Source of the DNA: a virus
Length of the DNA: 64,000 bases
Virus record (IMG/VR): IMGVR_UViG_3300028844_005363
Coordinates: 10,758-74,757 of that record
Direction: 5' to 3' (one strand)
Made by a program: the position numbers and the translations under genes. The notes under the pieces were generated by a model. The model was not told the origin of the DNA and did no database searches. It saw nothing but the letters and a program-made list of their open reading frames with translations. Within the stretch, counting starts at the first letter, position 1. Every line of letters starts with the position of its first letter. Shown piece by piece: positions 30,303 to 64,000 of the stretch.

Positions 30303-30358
30303 TGTGAATGCTCGAAGTTAAATAATGATTTAGTATATAGGTGCTTGGTAGGTATAAG

Positions 30359-30410
30359 CAAACAATGTTACAAACCTCTCGTCTGCGACTTCGGTTTGTA
30401 GCATTGTTTG
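30359..30410. repeat. Long inverted repeat
   Basis: CAAACAATGTTACAAACC / GGTTTGTAGCATTGTTTG with apical GTC-TGC-GAC. Confidence 0.8.
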
Positions 30411-30428
30411 TTTGAGGGTTTTTCTATT

Positions 30429-32648: not shown

Positions 32649-33188
32649 CTATTCCCCTTCTTCTATTTTTTTAATGCGAGTAGTTAGAATACTTTCGTAG
32701 TCTTTCATTATGTCAAACTGGTTACTTAAATCATTTTGTGATTCTAAAGTTAAACCCTTGAACATAGGTGTATAAAAGAAATCACCTAATGCTTTAACTT
32801 TCACAGACAACTCAGCTAGTTCAATACGCATGCGCTCAATAAAAGTAGTCTCAACTTTTGGGGCTGCTAAAGTCTTAGCTAGGTGGTAGCCTTCAAGCTC
32901 CCATAACTTTTCGCGTGATTCTTTTACGCACTTTTCAGTACAGTATTTAACACCAAGCTCAGCATTGAAATTACGTTTATCTACACAAGCCATCTCAGAA
33001 ACAGCTAATGTGAAGTCAACAGCTCCCATTGGTAACACGCCCACAACAAGAGTAGTAGTCGTACCTTCTACAAGTGATGGTTTATAAATCACTTGCTCCA
33101 TCAGCTCAGCTATATATTCAGGCAATACTTTAGGAAATATTGCACCATTGTCTTCAAAGTCTTTACACATATCTTTATCGTCAGTCAT
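32649..33188 (-). CDS. Two-domain protein: N4 gp49/Sf6 gp66-family domain plus helical C-terminal domain
   Basis: ACVDKRNFNAELG...KLWELEGY; C-domain FIERMRIELAEL..K..AL..F...M..Y..IL..RI. Confidence 0.8.
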   Translation of the reverse strand: MTDDKDMCKDFEDNGAIFPKVLPEYIAELMEQVIYKPSLVEGTTTTLVVGVLPMGAVDFTLAVSEMACVDKRNFNAELGVKYCTEKCVKESREKLWELEGYHLAKTLAAPKVETTFIERMRIELAELSVKVKALGDFFYTPMFKGLTLESQNDLSNQFDIMKDYESILTTRIKKIEEGE

Positions 33189-33553
33189 TACTTTCCCTCA
33201 ACATTAAAAATTCTACCATCTATAAATCTATGGGTTGATTCTGCTTCCCACATCTCTTTAACTTTATCAGCCTTACAACTACTATGACCGATATAAATTA
33301 CATACTGTCTAGGTCTTAATTGATCAACTAATATCAAACCTAACTTAGTAAGTTCACGCTTACGTTTAGCTAAAGTATTTTTGGTAATACCTAAACCAAG
33401 CATAATATAACTATCATTAAAGTCAGCACCATTACGTAGCCCCGACAAGTAACCATAAAGCCTATAAGCGCCATCACTTAAAGAACTATCAATAGCTAAA
33501 GACTTGTCCATCTTTACCCAATTCTCTTTAGGGAATATATGCCTAACTATCAC
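33188..33553 (-). CDS. Winged HTH protein, replication-initiator N-terminal-like
   Basis: LSDGAYRLYGYL...LGITKNTLAKRKRELTKLGLI. Confidence 0.7.
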   Translation of the reverse strand: MIVRHIFPKENWVKMDKSLAIDSSLSDGAYRLYGYLSGLRNGADFNDSYIMLGLGITKNTLAKRKRELTKLGLILVDQLRPRQYVIYIGHSSCKADKVKEMWEAESTHRFIDGRIFNVEGK

Positions 33554-35185: not shown

Positions 35186-35196
35186 GTGCTTCGCAC
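35186..35196 (+). promoter_or_regulatory. vRNAP early hairpin promoter (class A)
   Basis: GTGC-TTC-GCAC; template GCGAAGC mini-hairpin. Confidence 0.8.
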
Positions 35197-55754: not shown

Positions 55755-58442
55755 ATGAGTTTAAATCCAGTAACAATAACTCCTTTAAACGAGTCGGGTG
55801 CACCAATAGCTATTCTCTGTAAAGATAATACTATGCAACTGGCTAGCTTAAAGAAATACTACTTCGAACCATTAATGGAAAGGGGGGTATTGAGTAATGA
55901 AGTTGCTGCATACCCTCTAACCTATCCCAATGGTAAAGCTACCATCAAACAGATACGTGAACACTTAGGCGCATTGTTACCTAACCTTGTTGCCTACGGT
56001 GCACAGTATTTGATTGTTAATGATGGTGCTTATTTCAAGGAGCTTACTAAGCAGAAAAAATCTGATGCAAACTCAGGGTATGTACTGCCTTGTGCTTATG
56101 AAGGTTTTACTCACTTAAATGTTATTTTAGGTGTTAATTATAAGACCTTCTACTTTGATGCAAAAAACTCTGAAAAGTTACACCAAGGTATCAATGCTTT
56201 ATTTGATCACATTAATGGTTCATACCAAGAGCCAGGGCATAATGTAATATCAGATGCTACTTATGTAATGAAACATGAATGCCCTAAAAAGCATTTTGAT
56301 TTCTTACTAAAGCAACCTGAGTTAGAGCTTGATATTGAAGCTTTTAGTTTAAAATTCTGGTTGGCTGGCATAGCAACTATTGGATTTAGCTACGGCGAAG
56401 GTTCAGGTATTGTATTCCAATCTGATTACGTACCACTCAAGAAAACTTTTGAGGTAGGTAAGGGTAGTGCTAAAGCTACTGTGTATGGTGAGCAAATACA
56501 TAACCCTGAGTTCAAGAAAGCATTGCTTGAGTTCTTACTAACGTACGAAGGAACCATAACTTACCATAATGGTAACTATGATATTAAAGTACTCATTTAT
56601 GAGTTATTCATGGATGGTTTCCAAGACTACGCAGGTATGATTCACGGCATAAAAATACTTACCAAAAATTTCCACGACACTAAACTTATTCGTTATCTGG
56701 CTACAAATTCATGTGCAGGCAATAAGCTTAGTTTAAAAGACGTGGCTCAAGAGTTTGCCGGTAACTATGCAGAAGCAGACATCACAGACATTACTAAAAT
56801 TAAGTTACCAAACTTAATGAAGTATAACTTGATAGATTGTCTGTCTACTCGCTATGCCCGTTTGAAGCATTACCCTGAAATGGTAGCTGATGAACAGCTC
56901 AGTGTTTATGAAACCATATTCAGACCAAGTGTAGCTGTACTACTACAATCTGAATTGGTTGGTATGCCACTAGATATGGAAGAGGTTTTGAATACCAAGC
57001 GAGAGCTTACAATCATCTCTGATGCCATATCTCTACGTATCAATAACAATCCTCATTGTAAGGAGTACATGCGTATAGCGCGTAACACAGCGCTTATTGA
57101 GAAGAACCTTTCACTCAAGCGTGATGTACGTACAGCAGCGGATTTCCTTGATATGAAATTCAATCCAAACTCTGATCCACAGAAAGCGGATTTACTGCAT
57201 AACTTCTTGGCTATACCGTTCACGGATAAGACCCCTAGCGGTAAACCATCTGTAGGTGCTAAATCACTAAAGCGTATTATTAATACGGTTAAGCTTGATG
57301 ATGAAGCCAAAGATTTAATGAAAGCATTTATAGAATTTGCTGATGTATCAATAATCTTAAATAACTTCATTAAATCCTTTATTGAAAATAGTGTACTTAA
57401 AGAAGATGGTATTTATTGGTTACATGGTTCATTCAACCTAGGCGGTACTGTAAGCGGTCGTTTGAGTTCAAGCGCACCTAACTTACAAAATATTCCTAGT
57501 AGTGGCACACCGTACGCCAAGCACATTAAACGTTGTTTTAAAGCACCTCCTGGTTGGTTATTTGTAGGAGTAGATTTTGCTTCTCTTGAAGATAGAATCA
57601 GCGCACTTACTACACGTGACCCAGAAAAGCTTAAGGTGTATACCGATGGTTATGATGGTCACTGTTTAAGGGCGTACGCTTACTTCCCTGACCGTATGCC
57701 TGACATTGTAGAACAGATGAACTTAGCTATTGATAACCAACCTTTACAAGTTGAGATAATTAATAGCATAGCTGAACTACATGAAGATGTTAGGCAAGAC
57801 AGTAAACCACCAACATTCCTACTCACCTATGGTGGTACTTGGATGGGTTTACATAGCAACGTTGGTTTGAGTAAAGAGCTAGCTAAACAGACAGAAGAGA
57901 ATTATCACAATTTATACGTTGAGTCGGACAATTGGGTTAAGGCTAAAATTCTGCAAGCTAGTAAAGATGGGTACGTCACTGTCGCCTTCGGCTTACGTTT
58001 ACGTACCCCTATTCTAACTAAAACGATGTGGTCGGACGATTACACTGTACCTTATGAAGCCAGAAGTGAATCACGTACTGCTGGTAATGCTTTAGGGCAA
58101 AGCTACGGTATGTTGAATAACCGTGCTGCAATAGAGTTTCAAACCATAACTTTCTTATCAGATTATTCATTGGATATTCTGCCTTCGGCACCCATTCACG
58201 ATGCTCAATACTTTGTGATCCGTGACGACATAGAAGTAGTGAAATGGTTTAACGATAACTTAATACCATGTATGCAGTGGCAAGAGCTTGAAGAAATAAA
58301 ACATCCCACGGTTAAGTTAGGGGGTGACTTAGAAATATTTTACCCAAATTGGGCTAATAAAATAGCAATACCTAACTTTTCCACGGAACTAGAAATCATA
58401 GCCTTATGTGATAAGGCAATTATTAAGATGGATCAAGCATGA
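55755..58442 (+). CDS. polA: Family A DNA polymerase (N4 gp39-like)
   Basis: Exonuclease LDIEAFS/HNGNYD/YNLID; TVSGRLSSSAPNLQN, DFASLE, RQDSKPPTFLLTYG, IHDA. Confidence 0.96.
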   Translation: MSLNPVTITPLNESGAPIAILCKDNTMQLASLKKYYFEPLMERGVLSNEVAAYPLTYPNGKATIKQIREHLGALLPNLVAYGAQYLIVNDGAYFKELTKQKKSDANSGYVLPCAYEGFTHLNVILGVNYKTFYFDAKNSEKLHQGINALFDHINGSYQEPGHNVISDATYVMKHECPKKHFDFLLKQPELELDIEAFSLKFWLAGIATIGFSYGEGSGIVFQSDYVPLKKTFEVGKGSAKATVYGEQIHNPEFKKALLEFLLTYEGTITYHNGNYDIKVLIYELFMDGFQDYAGMIHGIKILTKNFHDTKLIRYLATNSCAGNKLSLKDVAQEFAGNYAEADITDITKIKLPNLMKYNLIDCLSTRYARLKHYPEMVADEQLSVYETIFRPSVAVLLQSELVGMPLDMEEVLNTKRELTIISDAISLRINNNPHCKEYMRIARNTALIEKNLSLKRDVRTAADFLDMKFNPNSDPQKADLLHNFLAIPFTDKTPSGKPSVGAKSLKRIINTVKLDDEAKDLMKAFIEFADVSIILNNFIKSFIENSVLKEDGIYWLHGSFNLGGTVSGRLSSSAPNLQNIPSSGTPYAKHIKRCFKAPPGWLFVGVDFASLEDRISALTTRDPEKLKVYTDGYDGHCLRAYAYFPDRMPDIVEQMNLAIDNQPLQVEIINSIAELHEDVRQDSKPPTFLLTYGGTWMGLHSNVGLSKELAKQTEENYHNLYVESDNWVKAKILQASKDGYVTVAFGLRLRTPILTKTMWSDDYTVPYEARSESRTAGNALGQSYGMLNNRAAIEFQTITFLSDYSLDILPSAPIHDAQYFVIRDDIEVVKWFNDNLIPCMQWQELEEIKHPTVKLGGDLEIFYPNWANKIAIPNFSTELEIIALCDKAIIKMDQA

Positions 58443-58627
58443 AAGTAGATGCATGTCTGTGTGACCGATGCGGTGCACTTTCTTTAAGTGAACATATTCA
58501 ACGCACAGCACATGTACCTATCAGTAACGGCACAGCACATCGTGTTGTTGACCATACTGATTTGGAACTGTGCCCACCATGCTCAGATGCGTTTAATTCC
58601 TTACTTAAAAACTTTTTGGATAAATAA
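58439..58627 (+). CDS. Small zinc-finger protein
   Basis: CDRCG...LCPPC. Confidence 0.7.
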   Translation: MKVDACLCDRCGALSLSEHIQRTAHVPISNGTAHRVVDHTDLELCPPCSDAFNSLLKNFLDK

Positions 58628-58628
58628 C

Positions 58629-59096
58629 ATGAACCAACAACAAAAGAATTTTGTGATTAGAAAAGCGAGAGAAATCGCAGTAGCGTACTTTGATAAGCTA
58701 TATAAGGCTGATGAACGAGCTGCAATTGAGTATAACTCTATACGTGTATCAATACAGCAGTTACTGTCTGAAGACCGTGAATTGTTAAAGACACTACCTA
58801 TTAATGAAGGTCTTGATGTTGACGCTAGTACATCAGTTACTTTTAATGATGTATTCGACCTAACCCCTTTATTTGAAAAGAAGGCTAAGGAACAAGGACT
58901 AGCGAAACCTGACTACCGTAGTCGGGACCATAAGGTGCGTATGGTGGGTCAAGAACATTATATGCGTTACCAAAATAGCATTGATGAGTTAGCAGTTATG
59001 GCTAAAGACATGGCTGATTTAGAAGTAGAAGTTATGCTTGGTTCTGATGAACAGACTAAAGTCATGATTCAAGAATTTACTACCAAATTTAGTTAG
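58629..59096 (+). CDS. Hypothetical protein
   Basis: Likely start MNQQQ. Confidence 0.7.
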   Translation: MNQQQKNFVIRKAREIAVAYFDKLYKADERAAIEYNSIRVSIQQLLSEDRELLKTLPINEGLDVDASTSVTFNDVFDLTPLFEKKAKEQGLAKPDYRSRDHKVRMVGQEHYMRYQNSIDELAVMAKDMADLEVEVMLGSDEQTKVMIQEFTTKFS

Positions 59097-59097
59097 G

Positions 59098-59110
59098 GCT
59101 GCTACGCAGC
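59098..59110 (+). promoter_or_regulatory. Triloop hairpin promoter candidate (class B)
   Basis: GCTGC-TAC-GCAGC, identical to 63414-63426. Confidence 0.55.
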
Positions 59111-59157
59111 TCTGCTCCCAAAAATTTCAATCAATCTGTAAATACAGGAACACTTAA

Positions 59158-59760
59158 ATGTCAGAAGTTAAAAAAACAATCACTGCTGTAACAAAAGCAA
59201 CAGGCGCACTTAGTAAAGTATCATTAGAACTACAAAAGCAGCTAGCTAGCTTAGGTGGTTTTTCTGAAACTGTTCATATTCTTGCTGAAGATATTGAGTT
59301 CAAGCAACAAGAACTTTCTGCGATTGAGCAAGAAATCAGTGATGCACAGCGTAAAGCTAATGCTGAACTTAAACTTCGTATTCTTGAAGATGAAGACCGT
59401 GTAGTAATCAGCATCTTAAATGATCGTGGTTGCGCTTCTATCAAAACTGATGACTTAAACCAATTACGTCATGATTTAGCTCTTGCTGAACAAGGTAATG
59501 AAGAAGCAATTGAAACTGCTGTAGCGGCAGCGAAAAGCAGTGCTGCTAAAGAACTTGCTTACACACTTTCGGCTGCTAAATCTAAGCATGAAGTTGATGT
59601 TGCTAACGACACAGCGACAATCACTATGCTTACAACTCAGCTTACTGATGCGCGCGCAAACAATGCAGAGCTTAAGCAAATGCTTAATGAAGAGCGTACT
59701 GCCCGTGTTGATATTGCTAAAGCTGGTACTAACATCAGCGTGTCTGCTCCAAGCAAGTAA
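59158..59760 (+). CDS. Coiled-coil protein
   Basis: 200-aa Ala/Glu/Lys heptad-rich ORF. Confidence 0.75.
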   Translation: MSEVKKTITAVTKATGALSKVSLELQKQLASLGGFSETVHILAEDIEFKQQELSAIEQEISDAQRKANAELKLRILEDEDRVVISILNDRGCASIKTDDLNQLRHDLALAEQGNEEAIETAVAAAKSSAAKELAYTLSAAKSKHEVDVANDTATITMLTTQLTDARANNAELKQMLNEERTARVDIAKAGTNISVSAPSK

Positions 59761-59844
59761 AACCAATCCCCTGTAAAAAGGCTGTTCAGTGAAGCTAGGC
59801 TCTCCTGTTTGTAAGATAACCTAGCAACAAATTTACGGTGATGT

Positions 59845-60099
59845 ATGAATAAACATAATCCCCCAAGCAAAGTCAAAAAGATTGCTGGCTTTGTCACTAA
59901 GCATCCTGTCATTGCTTTAGTACTATTAATGTTAATGGTAGTAGGTTTGATTAAGTTAATTGATTACAGCGCTGCACGCTACGCGTGTCACACCCGCTGG
60001 GTCGATAGTACCATTGAATCAAAGTACACGTTACGTGGTGGCTGTCTTGTGAAACATAAAGATAGTTGGATACCTGAGCGTAATTTCAGAATTAATTAG
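59845..60099 (+). CDS. Single-TM protein with Cys pair
   Basis: TM followed by C...GGCLVK..W.P. Confidence 0.7.
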   Translation: MNKHNPPSKVKKIAGFVTKHPVIALVLLMLMVVGLIKLIDYSAARYACHTRWVDSTIESKYTLRGGCLVKHKDSWIPERNFRIN

Positions 60100-60109
60100 G
60101 AGAACTTAA

Positions 60110-60550
60110 ATGTTCGGAATCAAAAAACTTTTAGAAGGCAAATTAAAAGCCTTGGGTATCAAAGTACATAAGGTTGAAAACAAAAATCTTATGGAAGCTA
60201 TCGTAGCTGGTGCGGTTCTTGTTGCCTACTCTGATGGTGATTGTTCAGACGATGAACTTCTTAAGTTACATAACATTGTTGAGTCGAACGAAAATCTTAA
60301 ACACTTCGGTAGTGAAGTAGGTAAGACAATCGACCTATACTGTAAAATGTATGAGTCAGGTGCGCGACTTGCAAAGGTTAAATTGCTTAAAGAACTTCGT
60401 GAAGTTGCTGCGAATGAAGAACAAAAGATTGAAGCTTTTGTTATCGCAATTGAAATTGCAGATGCAGATGGCAACATAGATGAAGCTGAATTAGCTATGC
60501 TACGTACCATCGGTAAAGAATTTGGGTTAAACCCAGATACCTACATTTAA
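60110..60550 (+). CDS. terB: TerB-family tellurite-resistance/co-chaperone-like protein
   Basis: VAYSDGDCSDDEL and IADADGNIDEAEL repeats. Confidence 0.88.
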   Translation: MFGIKKLLEGKLKALGIKVHKVENKNLMEAIVAGAVLVAYSDGDCSDDELLKLHNIVESNENLKHFGSEVGKTIDLYCKMYESGARLAKVKLLKELREVAANEEQKIEAFVIAIEIADADGNIDEAELAMLRTIGKEFGLNPDTYI

Positions 60551-60746
60551 TGTGGGTGGTTCGGCGTAGGCAAATAATCTTAATTATTATTATTATGTCT
60601 TCGCAAACATAGCGCTTACGCTGAACCAATTAAGTACACTTAGTGTCAGAATGGACCCATATACAAATGTCCCTAAACTAGTTGTGTTGAGGTTTGGTAA
60701 ACCAAGAGCAGTAATTTACTTATAATAATCTATGGTGGTTATTTTC

Positions 60747-60788
60747 AGTCGGTAAGGTTTTTGTCATATTTTCCTTACCGACTTTTTT
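60747..60788 (+). terminator. Intrinsic terminator
   Basis: AGTCGGTAAGG...CCTTACCGACT plus T tract. Confidence 0.7.
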
Positions 60789-60942
60789 ACCTGGAATGTA
60801 ATGGGTTAGCTGTGAATACGCTTGCAAGCTGTTCTTTTAAATTCACCCGCGCTAAACAATCGCAGCTAACACCGGTACATTTTGTGCCATAAACCCTAAT
60901 TTAACTTTATGTGGAATTATGGTGTTATTCAATTTAATACTC

Positions 60943-60967
60943 AGCCCTGTTTTTTACAGGGCTTTTT
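60943..60967 (+). terminator. Intrinsic terminator
   Basis: AGCCCTGT-TTTTT-ACAGGGCT plus T tract. Confidence 0.7.
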
Positions 60968-61129
60968 AGTATGTAACCCTGTGCATTGTTCTACACCTCA
61001 CAAAGAAACGGTCTTTGATAGTTTAACGAACTTAACGTAGGACAATGTACAGCGATGCATATTGCATCATAACTTTAAATAAATCTTAGGCGAAATATTT
61101 AGAGCAGTGGGTGAAAGACCCACAACTAT

Positions 61130-61254
61130 GCTTCTTGAAGCTCAGCAGTAGAGCGGCGGACTCTAATCCGTGTCAGTGTTAAGGACAGGTAATGAATTAC
61201 GTAATAAAAGCCTTATCAGCCTTTCCCGTGTCGGTGCAAATCCGATCAAGAAGC
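61130..61254 (+). tRNA. Aberrant tRNA-like RNA (CUA in anticodon position, 58-nt variable region)
   Basis: Acceptor GCTTCTTG/CAAGAAGC, D arm GCTC-AGCAGTA-GAGC, GCGGA-CTCTAA-TCCGT, T arm GTCGG-TGCAAAT-CCGAT. Confidence 0.65.
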
Positions 61255-61280
61255 AACTCATTTACAGTAGGAGGTACACC

Positions 61281-61715
61281 ATGAAAATAGATTGGAAAAC
61301 TGTATCTTCTTCTGAAGGTTACATTTCTATCAAAGCTGCCTTTGATGCAATAGCCGCTGAACAAAATAAGCGCTCTCAAAGATACCCGAACACGTACACT
61401 CACTATAAGAAACCAGAGCTGAAGCATTTGTTTGTTAAGGTTATAAACCGAGCCAAACACATTCATGCACGCACAGGTATTCCTATCGAAGTTGTACTTG
61501 AAAAGTGGGAGACTGCTAGAAAAGCTAGAAAGCACCCGCTGTTCAGTTTTTACTGTAGTACAACAGTTAAAGAATTTGAAAAACTTCCTATTAATCCTAA
61601 AAATCCTCTTGGTATTCGTGGCCTACGTAAAATGGTATGGAGCGACTATCAAGATAAAAATGAGAGAATGCGCGCATTTAAGCGTCGCAAGAAACTTTTT
61701 TTAAACAGAGTCTGA
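61281..61715 (+). CDS. Basic hypothetical protein
   Basis: AGGAGG RBS before MKIDWK. Confidence 0.8.
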   Translation: MKIDWKTVSSSEGYISIKAAFDAIAAEQNKRSQRYPNTYTHYKKPELKHLFVKVINRAKHIHARTGIPIEVVLEKWETARKARKHPLFSFYCSTTVKEFEKLPINPKNPLGIRGLRKMVWSDYQDKNERMRAFKRRKKLFLNRV

Positions 61716-61956
61716 CTGCTAGAAGCACAGTGTTAGTAGGTTCTTTGAGTGTACTGTGGTTGTGCACAGGGACTCTTGTAAGACAGAAAACTAACGAGTT
61801 AAGCTGCTGAATCCAAAACAAACACAAATAGTATTTGGATACGCGCTTTGGTGTACCACCCTATAAATCATCTCACACGTAAAGCCTTTAGGTGGAATAC
61901 GTGACAACCGTTCTTTTAGCTGGGCTGTGTGAGAACTAATTTTTAAGGATACCGTT

Positions 61957-62238
61957 ATGGTAAACAAAAACAGTTATATTCGTGGAGCTTATTTAGCTAC
62001 CAAAGATGGAAACCGGTACAGTAACGGTTATCTTGTTAAGGTTGACGAATCAGAATGTGTGATACTTACTGACTTCGGTAACTGCATCTCAATGTCTTTA
62101 GAAAGCGTTAAAGAACACTTTGAGCCATCTGATGCATGGATAGATTCTAGTAATGTTAACTACCCACACCCCTCGCTATACGAGCGCATAGAGGAACAGA
62201 TTAGTTTATTAGAGCATGCCTTAGATAAGGTTGCTTAA
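61957..62238 (+). CDS. Hypothetical protein, paralog family 3
   Basis: YSNG...ILTDFGN...ERIEEQI. Confidence 0.75.
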   Translation: MVNKNSYIRGAYLATKDGNRYSNGYLVKVDESECVILTDFGNCISMSLESVKEHFEPSDAWIDSSNVNYPHPSLYERIEEQISLLEHALDKVA

Positions 62239-62293
62239 TTACGTACTTACAATGGTTTAAGTACTTAACCCCTATAATTAAGAGTAAACCTTA

Positions 62294-62512
62294 ATGTTGA
62301 AAAAATTCACTAACTGGTTATTTTTTAAATTTCTTTGTAAGATTTTACGTGATGCACGTTTAAATGTTGCTACCCACAAAGCACAAAGAAGTCCTACCAA
62401 GAGCTATCTTGTTAAGGTAAAAGATGAAGCTGCTTGTGTTCGTCTTATTAAATACACTGGTTACGCTGTGCCAGAGGATATTTATGCAAAACCCAGTATT
62501 AGAAAAAAGTAA
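62294..62512 (+). CDS. Hypothetical protein
   Basis: 72-aa ORF. Confidence 0.5.
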   Translation: MLKKFTNWLFFKFLCKILRDARLNVATHKAQRSPTKSYLVKVKDEAACVRLIKYTGYAVPEDIYAKPSIRKK

Positions 62513-62789
62513 TATAAAAGTAGGTTTGCCTTTATTTTCTAGGGGGCATCTACCTTTTTACACCAATGCAGTTGTTACAAAAATTGATCATGAAAATGAG
62601 AAAGCTACTGTAATGACTGACTACGGTAATGTAATGAGCTTTAGTTACCACAGCTTAAATTATCATTACACAACAGCGCAGCAATACTTAGATGGTCTTG
62701 AACCTGAACCAATAATTCAACGTCTACAAATTCAGATTCGTAATCTGAATGAGCAGCTTGAATTACACCTGAATAGTGACTCGCAATAA
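62484..62789 (+). CDS. Hypothetical protein, paralog family 3
   Basis: YTNA...VMTDYGN...QRLQIQI; GAGGA RBS. Confidence 0.75.
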   Translation: MQNPVLEKSNIKVGLPLFSRGHLPFYTNAVVTKIDHENEKATVMTDYGNVMSFSYHSLNYHYTTAQQYLDGLEPEPIIQRLQIQIRNLNEQLELHLNSDSQ

Positions 62790-62938
62790 GTCATTATGGT
62801 GCTACTCCGAGCCTTGCGGAGTTGTCTAAATCCAGACTATAAAATGGTCGTATAAGCCCTGCATACGTTGTGTAAGGGCAACTAATTATTGTGGTTCTGG
62901 TGACAATATATAGTAAATCATTTGGTAAAGGAACTTTA

Positions 62939-63160
62939 ATGGATATTATGCAAAAAACAGCAGAAGCTTTTCTGGACCACATTGAAAAAATAGGTGCTGA
63001 AAATTACATTGAATGTACGTTCTCAAATAATACGGAACCAAGTAAATCTATTGTAGTTACTGTTGCTTACATTGAAGGTAAATCTCCTCACCAAAAACTT
63101 ATGGAAGCTGAAGAGCAAATCCAAGAGCTGAAAAATAAGCTTAATGAATTAAGTAAGTAA
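62939..63160 (+). CDS. Hypothetical protein
   Basis: AAGGA RBS; GAENYIE...GKSPHQ. Confidence 0.7.
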   Translation: MDIMQKTAEAFLDHIEKIGAENYIECTFSNNTEPSKSIVVTVAYIEGKSPHQKLMEAEEQIQELKNKLNELSK

Positions 63161-63199
63161 AGCCATGAAAGGTAATCAAACCATTCAATAGGATTTTAT

Positions 63200-63409
63200 A
63201 TGTATAAACTGTTTAAGATTAGTATGCTACTACCTTCATGGTTAGTGATGCAGGTTGTTTGGTCAGTGATTTTAGTATTAGCGATATTACTTACAATATT
63301 GCTTAATAGCCCAAATGTACTCGCACCTAAGCGACCAACATTCGCCAGTGTTAGTACCTTCTACCGAGAGTCTTTGGTAGGGATACGTAAATGGCTAAGT
63401 ACAATTTAA
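63200..63409 (+). CDS. Membrane protein
   Basis: Long hydrophobic segment; AGGA RBS. Confidence 0.65.
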   Translation: MYKLFKISMLLPSWLVMQVVWSVILVLAILLTILLNSPNVLAPKRPTFASVSTFYRESLVGIRKWLSTI

Positions 63410-63413
63410 TAAT

Positions 63414-63426
63414 GCTGCTACGCAGC
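63414..63426 (+). promoter_or_regulatory. Triloop hairpin promoter candidate (class B) upstream of RNA genes
   Basis: GCTGC-TAC-GCAGC. Confidence 0.55.
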
Positions 63427-63483
63427 TATTTCGATACAAAAATTCAGACCGAGTGATAATGTATCTTGGTCGCCACATTATAT

Positions 63484-63606
63484 GGGCGTACTTTGGTGTC
63501 AAGCCAACCTTGAGAACGGTTCGATTCCGTTGGTCACTATGGGTTAATAGTGATTGTGTGGTGCTAAGAGGATGGTGAAGCGGGTTCGAGTCCCGCACGC
63601 CCCCCA
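63484..63606 (+). ncRNA. tRNA-like RNA with two T arms and encoded CCA
   Basis: GGGCGT/ACGCCC-C-CCA; AACGG-TTCGATT-CCGTT; GCGGG-TTCGAGT-CCCGC. Confidence 0.6.
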
Positions 63607-63612
63607 AATTGA

Positions 63613-64000
63613 GAAATACTGCCCGAATCCCTTTATGGTTAAGACAGTATTTCAATAGTCTGGTTGTTGACAAAACGTTGTGTGTGGAGCGAAATCTAGT
63701 TGAGCTTTGAAGCATACGATGCCCGTAAGGGGATTGCTGTACTTGATACACAAGCATTGTAATACTAGATAAAGTTCGATTACTTCATAATCCTAGCCCC
63801 AGCAAAGTAGGTTGGTAAGCCTACTAACTAATTCTGCGTTCCCTTTAAATAGCCTATCAAGCTAACTATCGTAAGGTAGTAGGGGATGCGGGAGTAGTAA
63901 AGATGATAACCGATGGTAAAGGGAGATAATGCTCCTGACTACGACTAGGCATCTTTGCACAGACCCCGGACAGCACAGTCTGCCTAAAAGCCGATTGGTT
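63613..64000 (+). ncRNA. Large multi-branched structured RNA, probably continues past the window edge
   Basis: GNRA-capped hairpins, three-way junction closed by a 13-bp G-U-rich helix, no plus-strand ORF in the track. Confidence 0.55.

What the first reader, a model, noticed from the sequence alone, without database searches (positions are those of the whole stretch)
60557..61052. Array of equally sized stem-closed RNA units after terB
Seen: three unrelated stems, 60557-60571/60614-60628 (15 bp, 2 G-U), 60805-60815/60860-60870 (11 bp, 1 G-U, extendable) and 60979-60994/61037-61052 (16 bp, 2 G-U), close loops of 42, 44 and 42 nt. Each loop holds a small inner hairpin, and terminators lie between units. 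All non-Watson-Crick pairs are G-U on the plus strand, as expected for selection on RNA. Inference: a set of small RNAs sharing architecture rather than sequence, such as processed decoys, antitoxin mimics or guide-like RNAs. I do not recognise a named family.
Basis: partly seen in the sequence, partly recalled or inferred. Interest (0 to 1): 0.75.

Follow-up and report, generated by a model that had tools for sequence, protein, structure and literature searches.

The report
Stem-closed small RNAs in N4-like phage
A marine N4-like phage carries, in the gene-free gap after its terB gene, two (perhaps three) tRNA-sized RNA elements, each closed by a long helix; the same uncatalogued build recurs at the same genome position in coliphage N4, Pseudomonas phage LUZ7 and uncultured relatives, and its function is unknown.

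Summary
All three stems sit at the stated coordinates, every non-Watson-Crick pair is G-U on the + strand, and terminators separate the units. U1 (60557-60628) and U3 (60979-61052) are far beyond chance: about 0.13 such stems are expected per strand per genome, and the fold z-scores are -5.7 and -5.5. U2's 11-bp stem is at chance level, but its segment is the best-conserved piece in related metagenomic contigs.

The 730-nt gap stays non-coding under three genetic codes and matches no Rfam family. It belongs to an RNA-gene island of an N4-like phage (Schitoviridae-type).

The same build is a 12-25 bp closing helix around a 42-59 nt part that usually holds two hairpins. It occurs in the equivalent slot before the virion RNA polymerase gene in N4, LUZ7/LIT1 and uncultured N4-like phages. 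There the stems covary, and G-U outnumbers A-C about 24:1 on the transcribed strand. LUZ7's gap is published as a source of small RNAs.

Best reading: modular, helix-scaffolded small non-coding RNAs of unknown function. The decoy, antitoxin-mimic and guide ideas are untested.

This scan found the same kind before in coliphage N4 and N4-like coliphages (e1-320189, e1-258408, e1-354434, e1-268746). U1-U3 share no sequence with those.

The parts
60551..61280 (+). Non-coding gap between terB (stop at 60550) and the next ORF (ATG 61281). It is the first part of the phage's RNA-gene island.
   Evidence: No plausible ORF under code 11, TAG=Q or code 4. The 60551-61135 fold has z = -6.3.
60557..60628 (+). 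U1: a 15-bp closing helix with 2 G-U pairs around a 42-nt part holding two A/U-rich hairpins; 72 nt in all. It starts 6 nt after the terB stop.
   Evidence: (z -5.72). No such hairpin follows terB in Vibrio prophage homologues.
60712..60745 (+). M1: a ~35-nt motif paralogous to M2, just upstream of terminator T1.
   Evidence: Alignment. The motif does not recur elsewhere in the window.
60747..60790 (+). T1: intrinsic-terminator-like hairpin with an 11-bp perfect stem, a 15-nt loop and a T6 run.
   Evidence: I10. The consensus scan missed it because its loop limit is 8 nt.
60803..60873 (+). U2: an 11-bp helix (13 bp with a bulge) around a 44-nt part containing the palindrome GCTTGCAAGC. The stem is not significant, but the segment is highly conserved.
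   Evidence: (z -1.83). In relatives, 60795-60885 shows 1 difference in 91 nt and 60770-60885 shows 3 differences plus 2 gaps in 116 nt. The neighbouring ORF shows 37 in 256. U2 is disrupted in the long-range minimum-energy fold.
60897..60932 (+). M2: paralogue of M1, upstream of terminator T2.
60943..60968 (+). T2: intrinsic-terminator-like hairpin (8 bp, 5 G-C) plus a T run.
60979..61052 (+). U3: a 16-bp closing helix with 2 G-U pairs around a 42-nt part holding two hairpins (6 bp with a 5-nt loop; 5 bp with a 3-nt loop); 74 nt in all. It lies inside a 180-nt block (60886-61065) that one relative lacks.
   Evidence: (z -5.46). The block's absence is (X5 contig joins 60885 to 61066).
61054..61068 (+). 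Small hairpin GATGCA-TAT-TGCATC (6 bp, triloop) directly after U3, at the right edge of the variable block.
   Evidence: It does not match this phage's early-promoter hairpin GTGCTTCGCAC.
61129..61255 (+). tRNA-like RNA closed by a perfect 10-bp helix, with a ~54-nt insertion in the variable region. It is a discrete block that relatives lack.
   Evidence: Rfam tRNA at 34.7 bits. ARAGORN finds nothing. The 10-bp arms are (I19). Contigs join 61124 to 61258 and 61123 to 61256.

Best explanation
U1 and U3, and probably the conserved U2 segment, are small non-coding RNA modules. They are transcribed rightward, like all neighbouring genes, within the tRNA/ncRNA slot of an N4-like phage.

Each module has a long helix formed by its two ends and a 42-44 nt apical part. 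Inferred: the helix works as a scaffold. It defines the ends of the RNA, possibly as a double-strand-specific processing site, and shields the RNA from exonucleases. The apical part, a three-way junction with two short hairpins in U1 and U3, would be the working part, most likely a binding surface for a host or phage protein. Apical sequences differ completely between units and between phages, while the scaffold and size (about 66-97 nt) are kept.

The modules sit in blocks with short paralogous motifs and intrinsic terminators, and these blocks are gained and lost among close relatives, as accessory genes are.

Shown: the structures exist, are non-random and non-coding, and are selected at RNA level on the + strand. 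The same build recurs at the same slot in distant N4-like phages. Inferred: that discrete stable RNAs accumulate, how they are cut out, and what they bind.
For: 1. U1 and U3 are non-random: z -5.7 and -5.5, against 0.13 comparable stems expected per strand per genome. Both lie in one 730-nt gap that stays non-coding under three codes.
2. All mismatches are G-U on the + strand. In island stems of 15 bp or more across the window, N4 and the uncultured N4-like loci, the count is about 24 G-U to 1 A-C. Control stems of 13-14 bp in the window outside the gap give 10:20.
3. The same build occurs in the same slot elsewhere. N4's gp47-gp48 gap holds units at 32708-32789, 32941-33037 and 33133-33216, with z -5.2 to -6.5. 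LUZ7's orf69-orf70 gap holds three stem-closed units; the third is the best conserved between LUZ7 and LIT1, and compensatory changes occur in unit 1. Uncultured N4-like loci hold 15-25 bp stems with 29-50 nt loops.
4. The N4-A/L002-L010 family keeps its pairing through double changes at 7 of 15 pairs.
5. Expression by analogy: ONT-cappable-seq of LUZ7 found abundant RNAs under 250 nt (sRNA1-3) from exactly that gap, with a start site, terminators and one apparently processed species (PMC9163698).
6. LUZ7's gap has no tRNA, so the units are not mere accessories of tRNA genes.
7. The U2 segment is 97-99% identical in relatives whose flanking genes are about 85% identical. Blocks 60886-65 and 61125-257 are present or absent as wholes.
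Against: There is no RNA evidence for this phage.

U1's region is poorly conserved in one relative: 29 differences and 9 gaps over 60429-60607, then about 160 nt that do not align.

U2's stem is at chance level and is lost in the long-range fold.

U2 and U3 start 10-14 nt after terminators, and no convincing promoter precedes them. They would therefore be made only by read-through or from unrecognised phage promoters.

The units share no sequence with the N4 family, so 'same class' rests on build and position only.
Confidence: 0.55

Rival explanations
1. Cis-acting processing or stability hairpins. The long helices are cleavage sites for a double-strand-specific RNase (RNase III type) or barriers to exonucleases. 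They punctuate long middle/late transcripts and protect the ends of the terB mRNA, the tRNA-like RNAs and the downstream mRNAs. The apical parts would have no function of their own.
For: The units begin 2-14 nt after a stop codon, a terminator or a tRNA 3' end, both in the window and in N4. Helix sequence is free to vary as long as pairing is kept. Stems of 13-25 bp are in the range such enzymes accept (established knowledge of T7 R sites and rRNA stalks).
Against: Apical sequences are conserved across phages whose closing helices differ: the ACAGAAAC...CAGAAACAATG part is shared by L003, L005 and L008. One N4 unit holds a canonical T arm. LUZ7 unit 3 is the most conserved part of its gap, inside included. 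The U2 segment is conserved throughout. A constant apical size of 42-50 nt is not needed for a cleavage site.
Confidence: 0.25
2. DNA-level inverted repeats, such as recombination or cassette-exchange sites, cruciforms, a replication-related element or miniature mobile elements, with no role as RNA.
For: The region is a mosaic of blocks present or absent among relatives. Short paralogous motifs M1, M2 and M3 lie near block edges.
Against: Mismatches are strongly strand-asymmetric, G-U not A-C, on the transcribed strand; a DNA hairpin or repeat would not show that. Spacers of 42-59 nt disfavour cruciform extrusion (established knowledge). The block edges (60885/61066, 60722/61069) do not coincide with the arms of the units. 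There are no target-site duplications or repeated copies elsewhere in the genome.
Confidence: 0.08
3. Decayed tRNA genes: relics of a former tRNA cluster whose end pairing happens to have lengthened, now without function.
For: Sizes of 72 and 74 nt match tRNAs. The island holds tRNA-like RNAs (notes e1-6074684 and e1-6074685). N4 unit B keeps a T arm.
Against: No tRNA signal appears for U1-U3 even at E up to 10 or with ARAGORN. There is no T loop, D arm or 7-nt anticodon loop. Decay would shorten helices rather than create 15-16 bp helices with G-U-only mismatches. The z-scores are as strong as those of the conserved N4 units.
Confidence: 0.05

Closest known systems
Long-stem units in the tRNA cluster of coliphage N4 (NC_008720 32708-32789, 32941-33037, 33133-33216). 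They are unannotated in the record, and this scan noted them before (e1-320189, e1-258408, e1-354434).
   Same: Same genome slot, between the replication genes and the virion RNA polymerase gene. The build is the same: a 13-19 bp closing helix and a 44-59 nt apical part, with two hairpins in units B and C. Fold z-scores are similar, and G-U pairs are on the transcribed strand only.
   Different: There is no sequence similarity: the stem-base motif GGTATTGG is absent from the window, and its N4 variant was not searched separately. The N4 units lie among four ordinary tRNA genes, and one has a T arm. The window has no ordinary tRNA and no T arm in U1-U3.
sRNA1, sRNA2 and sRNA3 of Pseudomonas phage LUZ7, from the orf69-orf70 gap (PMC9163698)
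   Same: Same slot before the virion RNA polymerase gene. The gap folds into three stem-closed units plus a terminator. Unit 3 (12-13 bp helix, ~44-nt part with two hairpins) matches the build of U1 and U3.
   Different: The LUZ7 RNAs were seen experimentally, but the text I could read gives no coordinates, so I could not map them onto the units. There is no sequence similarity to the window. The LUZ7 units are G+C-rich.
Phage T4 stable RNAs, species 1 and species 2 (rnaC, rnaD; X03016 4741-4877 and 4615-4734)
   Same: Small non-coding RNAs of unknown function encoded beside phage tRNA genes and matured from a common precursor (established knowledge; annotation).
   Different: The T4 RNAs are 120-137 nt, with short end pairing and, in species 1, a tRNA-type T arm. 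U1-U3 are 66-74 nt, with 11-16 bp end helices and no tRNA features.
RNase III processing stalks (phage T7 early-region R sites; helices flanking 16S and 23S rRNA)
   Same: A long helix formed by sequences that flank a functional RNA or lie between genes. The helix sequence is variable but pairing is kept.
   Different: No cleavage is shown here. The helices of U1-U3 are shorter than two turns. T7 sites are simple hairpins with an internal loop, not helices closing a 42-nt branched part.

Membership tests
Any Rfam 15 family | Covariance-model match at or near the gathering score | tested here: not met
   A permissive scan of 58000-64000 (E up to 10) gives nothing on U1 or U3. The 60781-60970 GcvB-like hit, which spans U2, scores 28.7 bits against a threshold of 42 and is anchored on terminator T2.
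tRNA (RF00005) | Cloverleaf with a 7-bp acceptor stem, T loop, and anticodon arm with a 7-nt loop | tested here: not met
   No tRNA hit on U1-U3 by Infernal or ARAGORN. The inner hairpins have 3-, 4-, 5- and 8-nt loops.
N4-A / GGTATTGG stem-closed RNA family (N4 and uncultured N4-like phages) | Conserved stem base 5'-GGTATTGG ... CCAATRCC-3' | tested here: not met
   GGTATTGG occurs nowhere in the window. The family is defined.
N4-A / GGTATTGG stem-closed RNA family | Long closing helix kept by compensatory change, 43-50 nt apical part, position in the pre-vRNAP RNA slot | tested here: inconclusive
   Build and position match. Covariation could not be measured for U1-U3 because no relative's sequence was available.
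T4 species 1/2 type tRNA-like stable RNAs | tRNA-type T arm and short acceptor-like end pairing | tested here: not met
   Species 1 shows the T arm (CCGGGUUCGAAUCCCGG). U1-U3 have none.
RNase III processing site | Cleavage by RNase III within a helix of about one to two turns | not testable with these tools
   The 15-16 bp helices are compatible, but no RNA-end data exist for this phage.
Intrinsic (Rho-independent) terminator | G+C-rich hairpin with a small loop, directly followed by a U run | tested here: not met
   U1-U3 have 42-44 nt loops and no U run. T1 and T2 between them do fit.
N4-type hairpin promoter for the virion RNA polymerase | Short stem (4-7 bp) with a 3-nt loop and conserved sequence | tested here: not met
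   This phage's motif GTGCTTCGCAC occurs at 35186, 36379 and 39724, plus two one-mismatch copies in the early region. No copy lies in 60551-61280.
Hammerhead (type III) and other small self-cleaving ribozymes | Three-way junction with conserved core (CUGANGA, GAAA) | tested here: not met
   The junction strands of U1 and U3 lack the core (read). No Rfam ribozyme hit.
Y RNA / YrlA (RF02553) | Helix formed by the 5' and 3' ends with the Ro-binding motif, plus a tRNA-like module | tested here: not met
   No YrlA hit in the window region.

The most novel reading that the evidence does not exclude
N4-like phages as a family would keep a dedicated slot for exchangeable 'RNA accessory genes'. A generic long-helix scaffold would present diverse 40-60 nt aptamer-like modules that bind and titrate host proteins, such as tRNA- or RNA-directed defence nucleases or RNA-processing enzymes. 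U1-U3 would be a marine phage's own set of such decoys. That would be a protein-free counterpart of anti-defence gene islands.
Probability: 0.2. Interest if true: 0.85.

Novelty: new variant of a known kind. Interest (0 to 1): 0.55.

Why it matters
Small stable RNAs next to phage tRNA genes have been known since T4's species 1 and 2 RNAs, yet none has a known function. This window shows that a very divergent marine N4-like phage keeps the same helix-closed, tRNA-sized build with entirely different sequences. With N4 and LUZ7, that defines a structural class tied to one genome slot across the family.

N4 and LUZ7 are culturable, and LUZ7's gap is already known to give small RNAs. The class can therefore be tested directly by deletion, pull-down and RNase mutants. 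If the apical parts bind host factors, this would be a new kind of phage accessory gene, and annotation pipelines currently miss it completely.

Tried and rejected
**Relatives and sequence searches**
- No close relative could be fetched. blastn of 60100-61300 against named phages found nothing.
- An exact U1 23-mer and a gapped U2 stem pattern found nothing in IMG/VR.
- The DNA polymerase has no close kin in IMG/VR and is only ~47% identical to N4's.
- The ORF after the gap has only 34-39% relatives in IMG/VR and JGI metagenomes.
- The genome search does not draw relatives for a virus record.

**terB as an anchor**
- terB is mobile. Its 65-77% relatives are Vibrio chromosomal/prophage copies and short metagenome contigs, and no U1-like hairpin follows the five prophage copies checked.
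- Named Vibrio N4-like phages have packed ORFs after terB.

**RNA and expression evidence**
- No RNA holder is listed among public runs.
- Contigs of four runs gave block structure and difference counts, but not the sequences needed for covariation.

**Other readings tested**
- Target search: complementary matches of 10-12 nt within the phage are at chance level.
- The M1/M2 motif is not a repeated promoter.
- Sigma-70 and terminator consensus counts in 59000-64000 equal those of shuffles.
- attC-like reading of U2: the core-like ends are in the wrong order (GTTAGC ... GCTAAC), read directly from the sequence. I did not search for an integrase.
- CRISPR-repeat mimicry in relatives: a 9-nt match of L002's arm to the type I-E repeat, from memory, lacks the repeat's hairpin. 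Not pursued.
- Hidden ORFs under stop-codon reassignment: none.
- Pfam and PHROGs on eight flanking ORFs gave only 'unknown function'.
- pVco-5 has no RNA gap in this slot, so the slot is not filled in every N4-like phage.

Full report
**Where the finding lies.** The window is bases 10758-74757 of a 74,757-bp virus record. It carries a virion RNA polymerase ORF of more than 2,835 aa on the - strand and a DNA polymerase about 47% identical to that of coliphage N4, so this is a divergent N4-like phage. The flagged stretch lies in a 730-nt gap between terB (60110-60550) and a 144-aa ORF of unknown function (61281-61715). The gap has no credible ORF under code 11, with TAG read as a residue, or under code 4. 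Earlier notes on the same genome describe tRNA-like and larger non-coding RNAs at 61130-61254, 63484-63606, 63613-64000 and across the record's start. The gap is therefore the first part of an RNA-gene island.

**The observation.**
- All three stems are exactly as described, and all five non-Watson-Crick pairs are G-U on the + strand.
- U1 and U3 fold as a long helix closing a three-way junction with two short hairpins (z -5.72 and -5.46). Their reverse complements fold worse.
- On the + strand they are two of only three stems of 15 bp or more (at most 2 G-U, loop 25-70) in the whole genome. Simulated genomes give 0.13 per strand.
- U2's 11-bp stem is ordinary: 19 stems of that length lie on the + strand, its z is -1.8, and it is lost in the long-range fold.
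- Terminator-like hairpins T1 (60747-60790) and T2 (60943-60968) lie between the units.
- Each terminator is preceded by one copy of a paralogous ~35-nt motif, M1 or M2.

**Evidence from relatives of this phage.**
- Contigs of four metagenome runs from 2024 could be laid on the region.
- One 429-nt contig matches 60795-60885 with 1 difference in 91. It then jumps to 61066-61124, then to 61258-61513, where it shows 37 differences in 256.
- Another contig matches 60770-60885 with 3 differences and 2 gaps. It shows 29 differences and 9 gaps over 60429-60607, followed by about 160 nt that do not align.
- Two conclusions follow. The U2 segment is under much stronger constraint than the flanking genes, or was exchanged recently. 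Block 60886-61065 (M2, T2, U3) and block 61125-61257 (the tRNA-like RNA, itself closed by a perfect 10-bp helix) behave as whole units of gain and loss.
- A third set of contigs joins 60722 to 61069, near copies of the M motif.

**The same build elsewhere.**
- Uncultured N4-like loci that carry a distant terB also have 15-25 bp stems closing 29-50 nt parts, 0.4-1.3 kb downstream of terB.
- In coliphage N4, the unannotated 1.5-kb gap between gp47 and gp48 holds four tRNAs. It also holds the only + strand stems of 13 bp or more (at most 3 G-U) in the first 45 kb: 32708-32789, 32941-33037 and 33133-33216, with z -5.2 to -6.5. The middle unit has a canonical T arm beside the 3' strand of its helix.
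- N4 unit A is homologous to units in six uncultured loci. The stem base GGTATTGG...CCAATRCC is kept, the rest of the helix is different in each lineage yet fully complementary, and 7 of 15 pairs show double compensatory changes.
- In LUZ7, the 400-nt orf69-orf70 gap lies in the same slot before the virion RNA polymerase gene. It folds into three stem-closed units plus a terminator (z -6.2) and has no tRNA or Rfam match.
- LUZ7 unit 3 (12-13 bp helix, ~44 nt, two hairpins) is the best-conserved part between LUZ7 and LIT1-type phages. Unit 1 shows compensatory changes.
- Putzeys et al. 2022 (PMC9163698) report that exactly this LUZ7 gap is heavily transcribed late in infection into RNAs under 250 nt (sRNA1-3). 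Those RNAs have a start site and alternative terminators, and one species appears to be processed.

**RNA or DNA?** I allowed G-T and A-C mismatches equally and then counted each type. Island stems of 15 bp or more in the window, N4 and the uncultured loci carry about 24 G-U and 1 A-C on the strand of the flanking genes. Stems of 13-14 bp in the window outside the gap carry 10 G-U and 20 A-C. This asymmetry points to selection on the transcript, not on the duplex DNA.

**What it is not.**
- No Rfam family, tRNA, ribozyme core or Y-RNA match.
- Not terminators: the loops are large and there is no U run.
- Not this phage's early-promoter hairpin, which I identified as GTGCTTCGCAC at 35186, 36379 and 39724.
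- Not linked to terB.
- No targets above chance within the phage.
- T4's species 1 and 2 RNAs, the textbook comparison, fold differently.

**Interpretation.**
- Best supported (0.55): U1, U3 and probably the U2 segment are helix-scaffolded small non-coding RNAs in a slot that N4-like phages reserve for RNA genes. The scaffold and size are kept, while the apical parts are diverse and exchangeable.
- The apical parts probably matter in their own right. One apical sequence type is shared by phages with different helices, and the U2 and LUZ7 unit 3 interiors are conserved.
- How the RNAs are cut out and what they bind is inference.
- The main rival (0.25) is a purely cis role as processing or stability hairpins.
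- DNA-level repeats (0.08) and decayed tRNA genes (0.05) fit poorly.

**Relation to earlier work in this scan.** Notes e1-320189, e1-354434, e1-258408 and e1-268746 describe the N4 and N4-like coliphage units. I reached the N4 units independently and confirm them. New here are a non-homologous set in a marine lineage, its block-wise turnover among relatives, the class-wide G-U asymmetry, and the link to the published LUZ7 small RNAs.

Noticed in passing
window 61129-61255: The tRNA-like RNA (Rfam tRNA 34.7 bits, missed by ARAGORN) is closed by a perfect 10-bp helix and has a ~54-nt insertion in the variable region. In relatives' contigs it is absent as a precise block: 61124 joins 61258 with only 'CT' between.
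   Followed up: partly
window 34204, 35186, 35600, 36379, 39724 (+ strand): GTGCTTCGCAC (stem GTGC/GCAC, loop TTC) occurs three times exactly and twice with one mismatch, all on the + strand in the early-gene region. It is probably this phage's hairpin promoter for the virion RNA polymerase. None lies in the RNA island.
   Followed up: partly
window 60712-60790 and 60897-60968: Two paralogous modules, each a ~35-nt motif containing TATGGTG...TTATT followed by an intrinsic terminator. They could be two short terminator-ended sRNAs or the 3' parts of longer ones that start at U1 and U2. A third, weaker motif copy lies at 61066-61090.
   Followed up: partly
window 61107-61123: Hairpin GTGGGT-GAAAG-ACCCAC ends 5 nt before the tRNA-like RNA. 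It is retained in the relative that lacks that RNA, where it lies about 25 nt before the next ORF's start codon. It may be a promoter or processing signal.
   Followed up: no
window 30356-30413: The only other + strand stem of 15 bp or more in the genome: a 19-21 bp hairpin with a 16-20 nt loop, between two - strand late genes. Its two G-U pairs are on the + strand, opposite to the genes.
   Followed up: no
window 57309-57379: An A/T-rich 15-bp inverted repeat (G-U on the - strand, loop 41) inside the DNA polymerase gene.
   Followed up: no
L003:4768-4836, L005:5023-5111, L008:5066-5151: Three uncultured N4-like phages share one apical sequence type (ACAGAAACGC - hairpin - CAGAAACAATG, the octamer-like word twice) inside closing helices of unrelated sequence. 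This suggests a sequence-specific ligand.
   Followed up: partly
L097 (N4) 32843-32938: N4 has a tRNA-like element with a 7-bp acceptor-like helix, a T arm and a 3' ACCA that ARAGORN does not call. The 97%-identical stretch in phage PBM-3 is annotated tRNA-Cys.
   Followed up: no
window 61716-61956: A further 240-nt gap without an ORF lies behind the 144-aa ORF. It was not examined.
   Followed up: no
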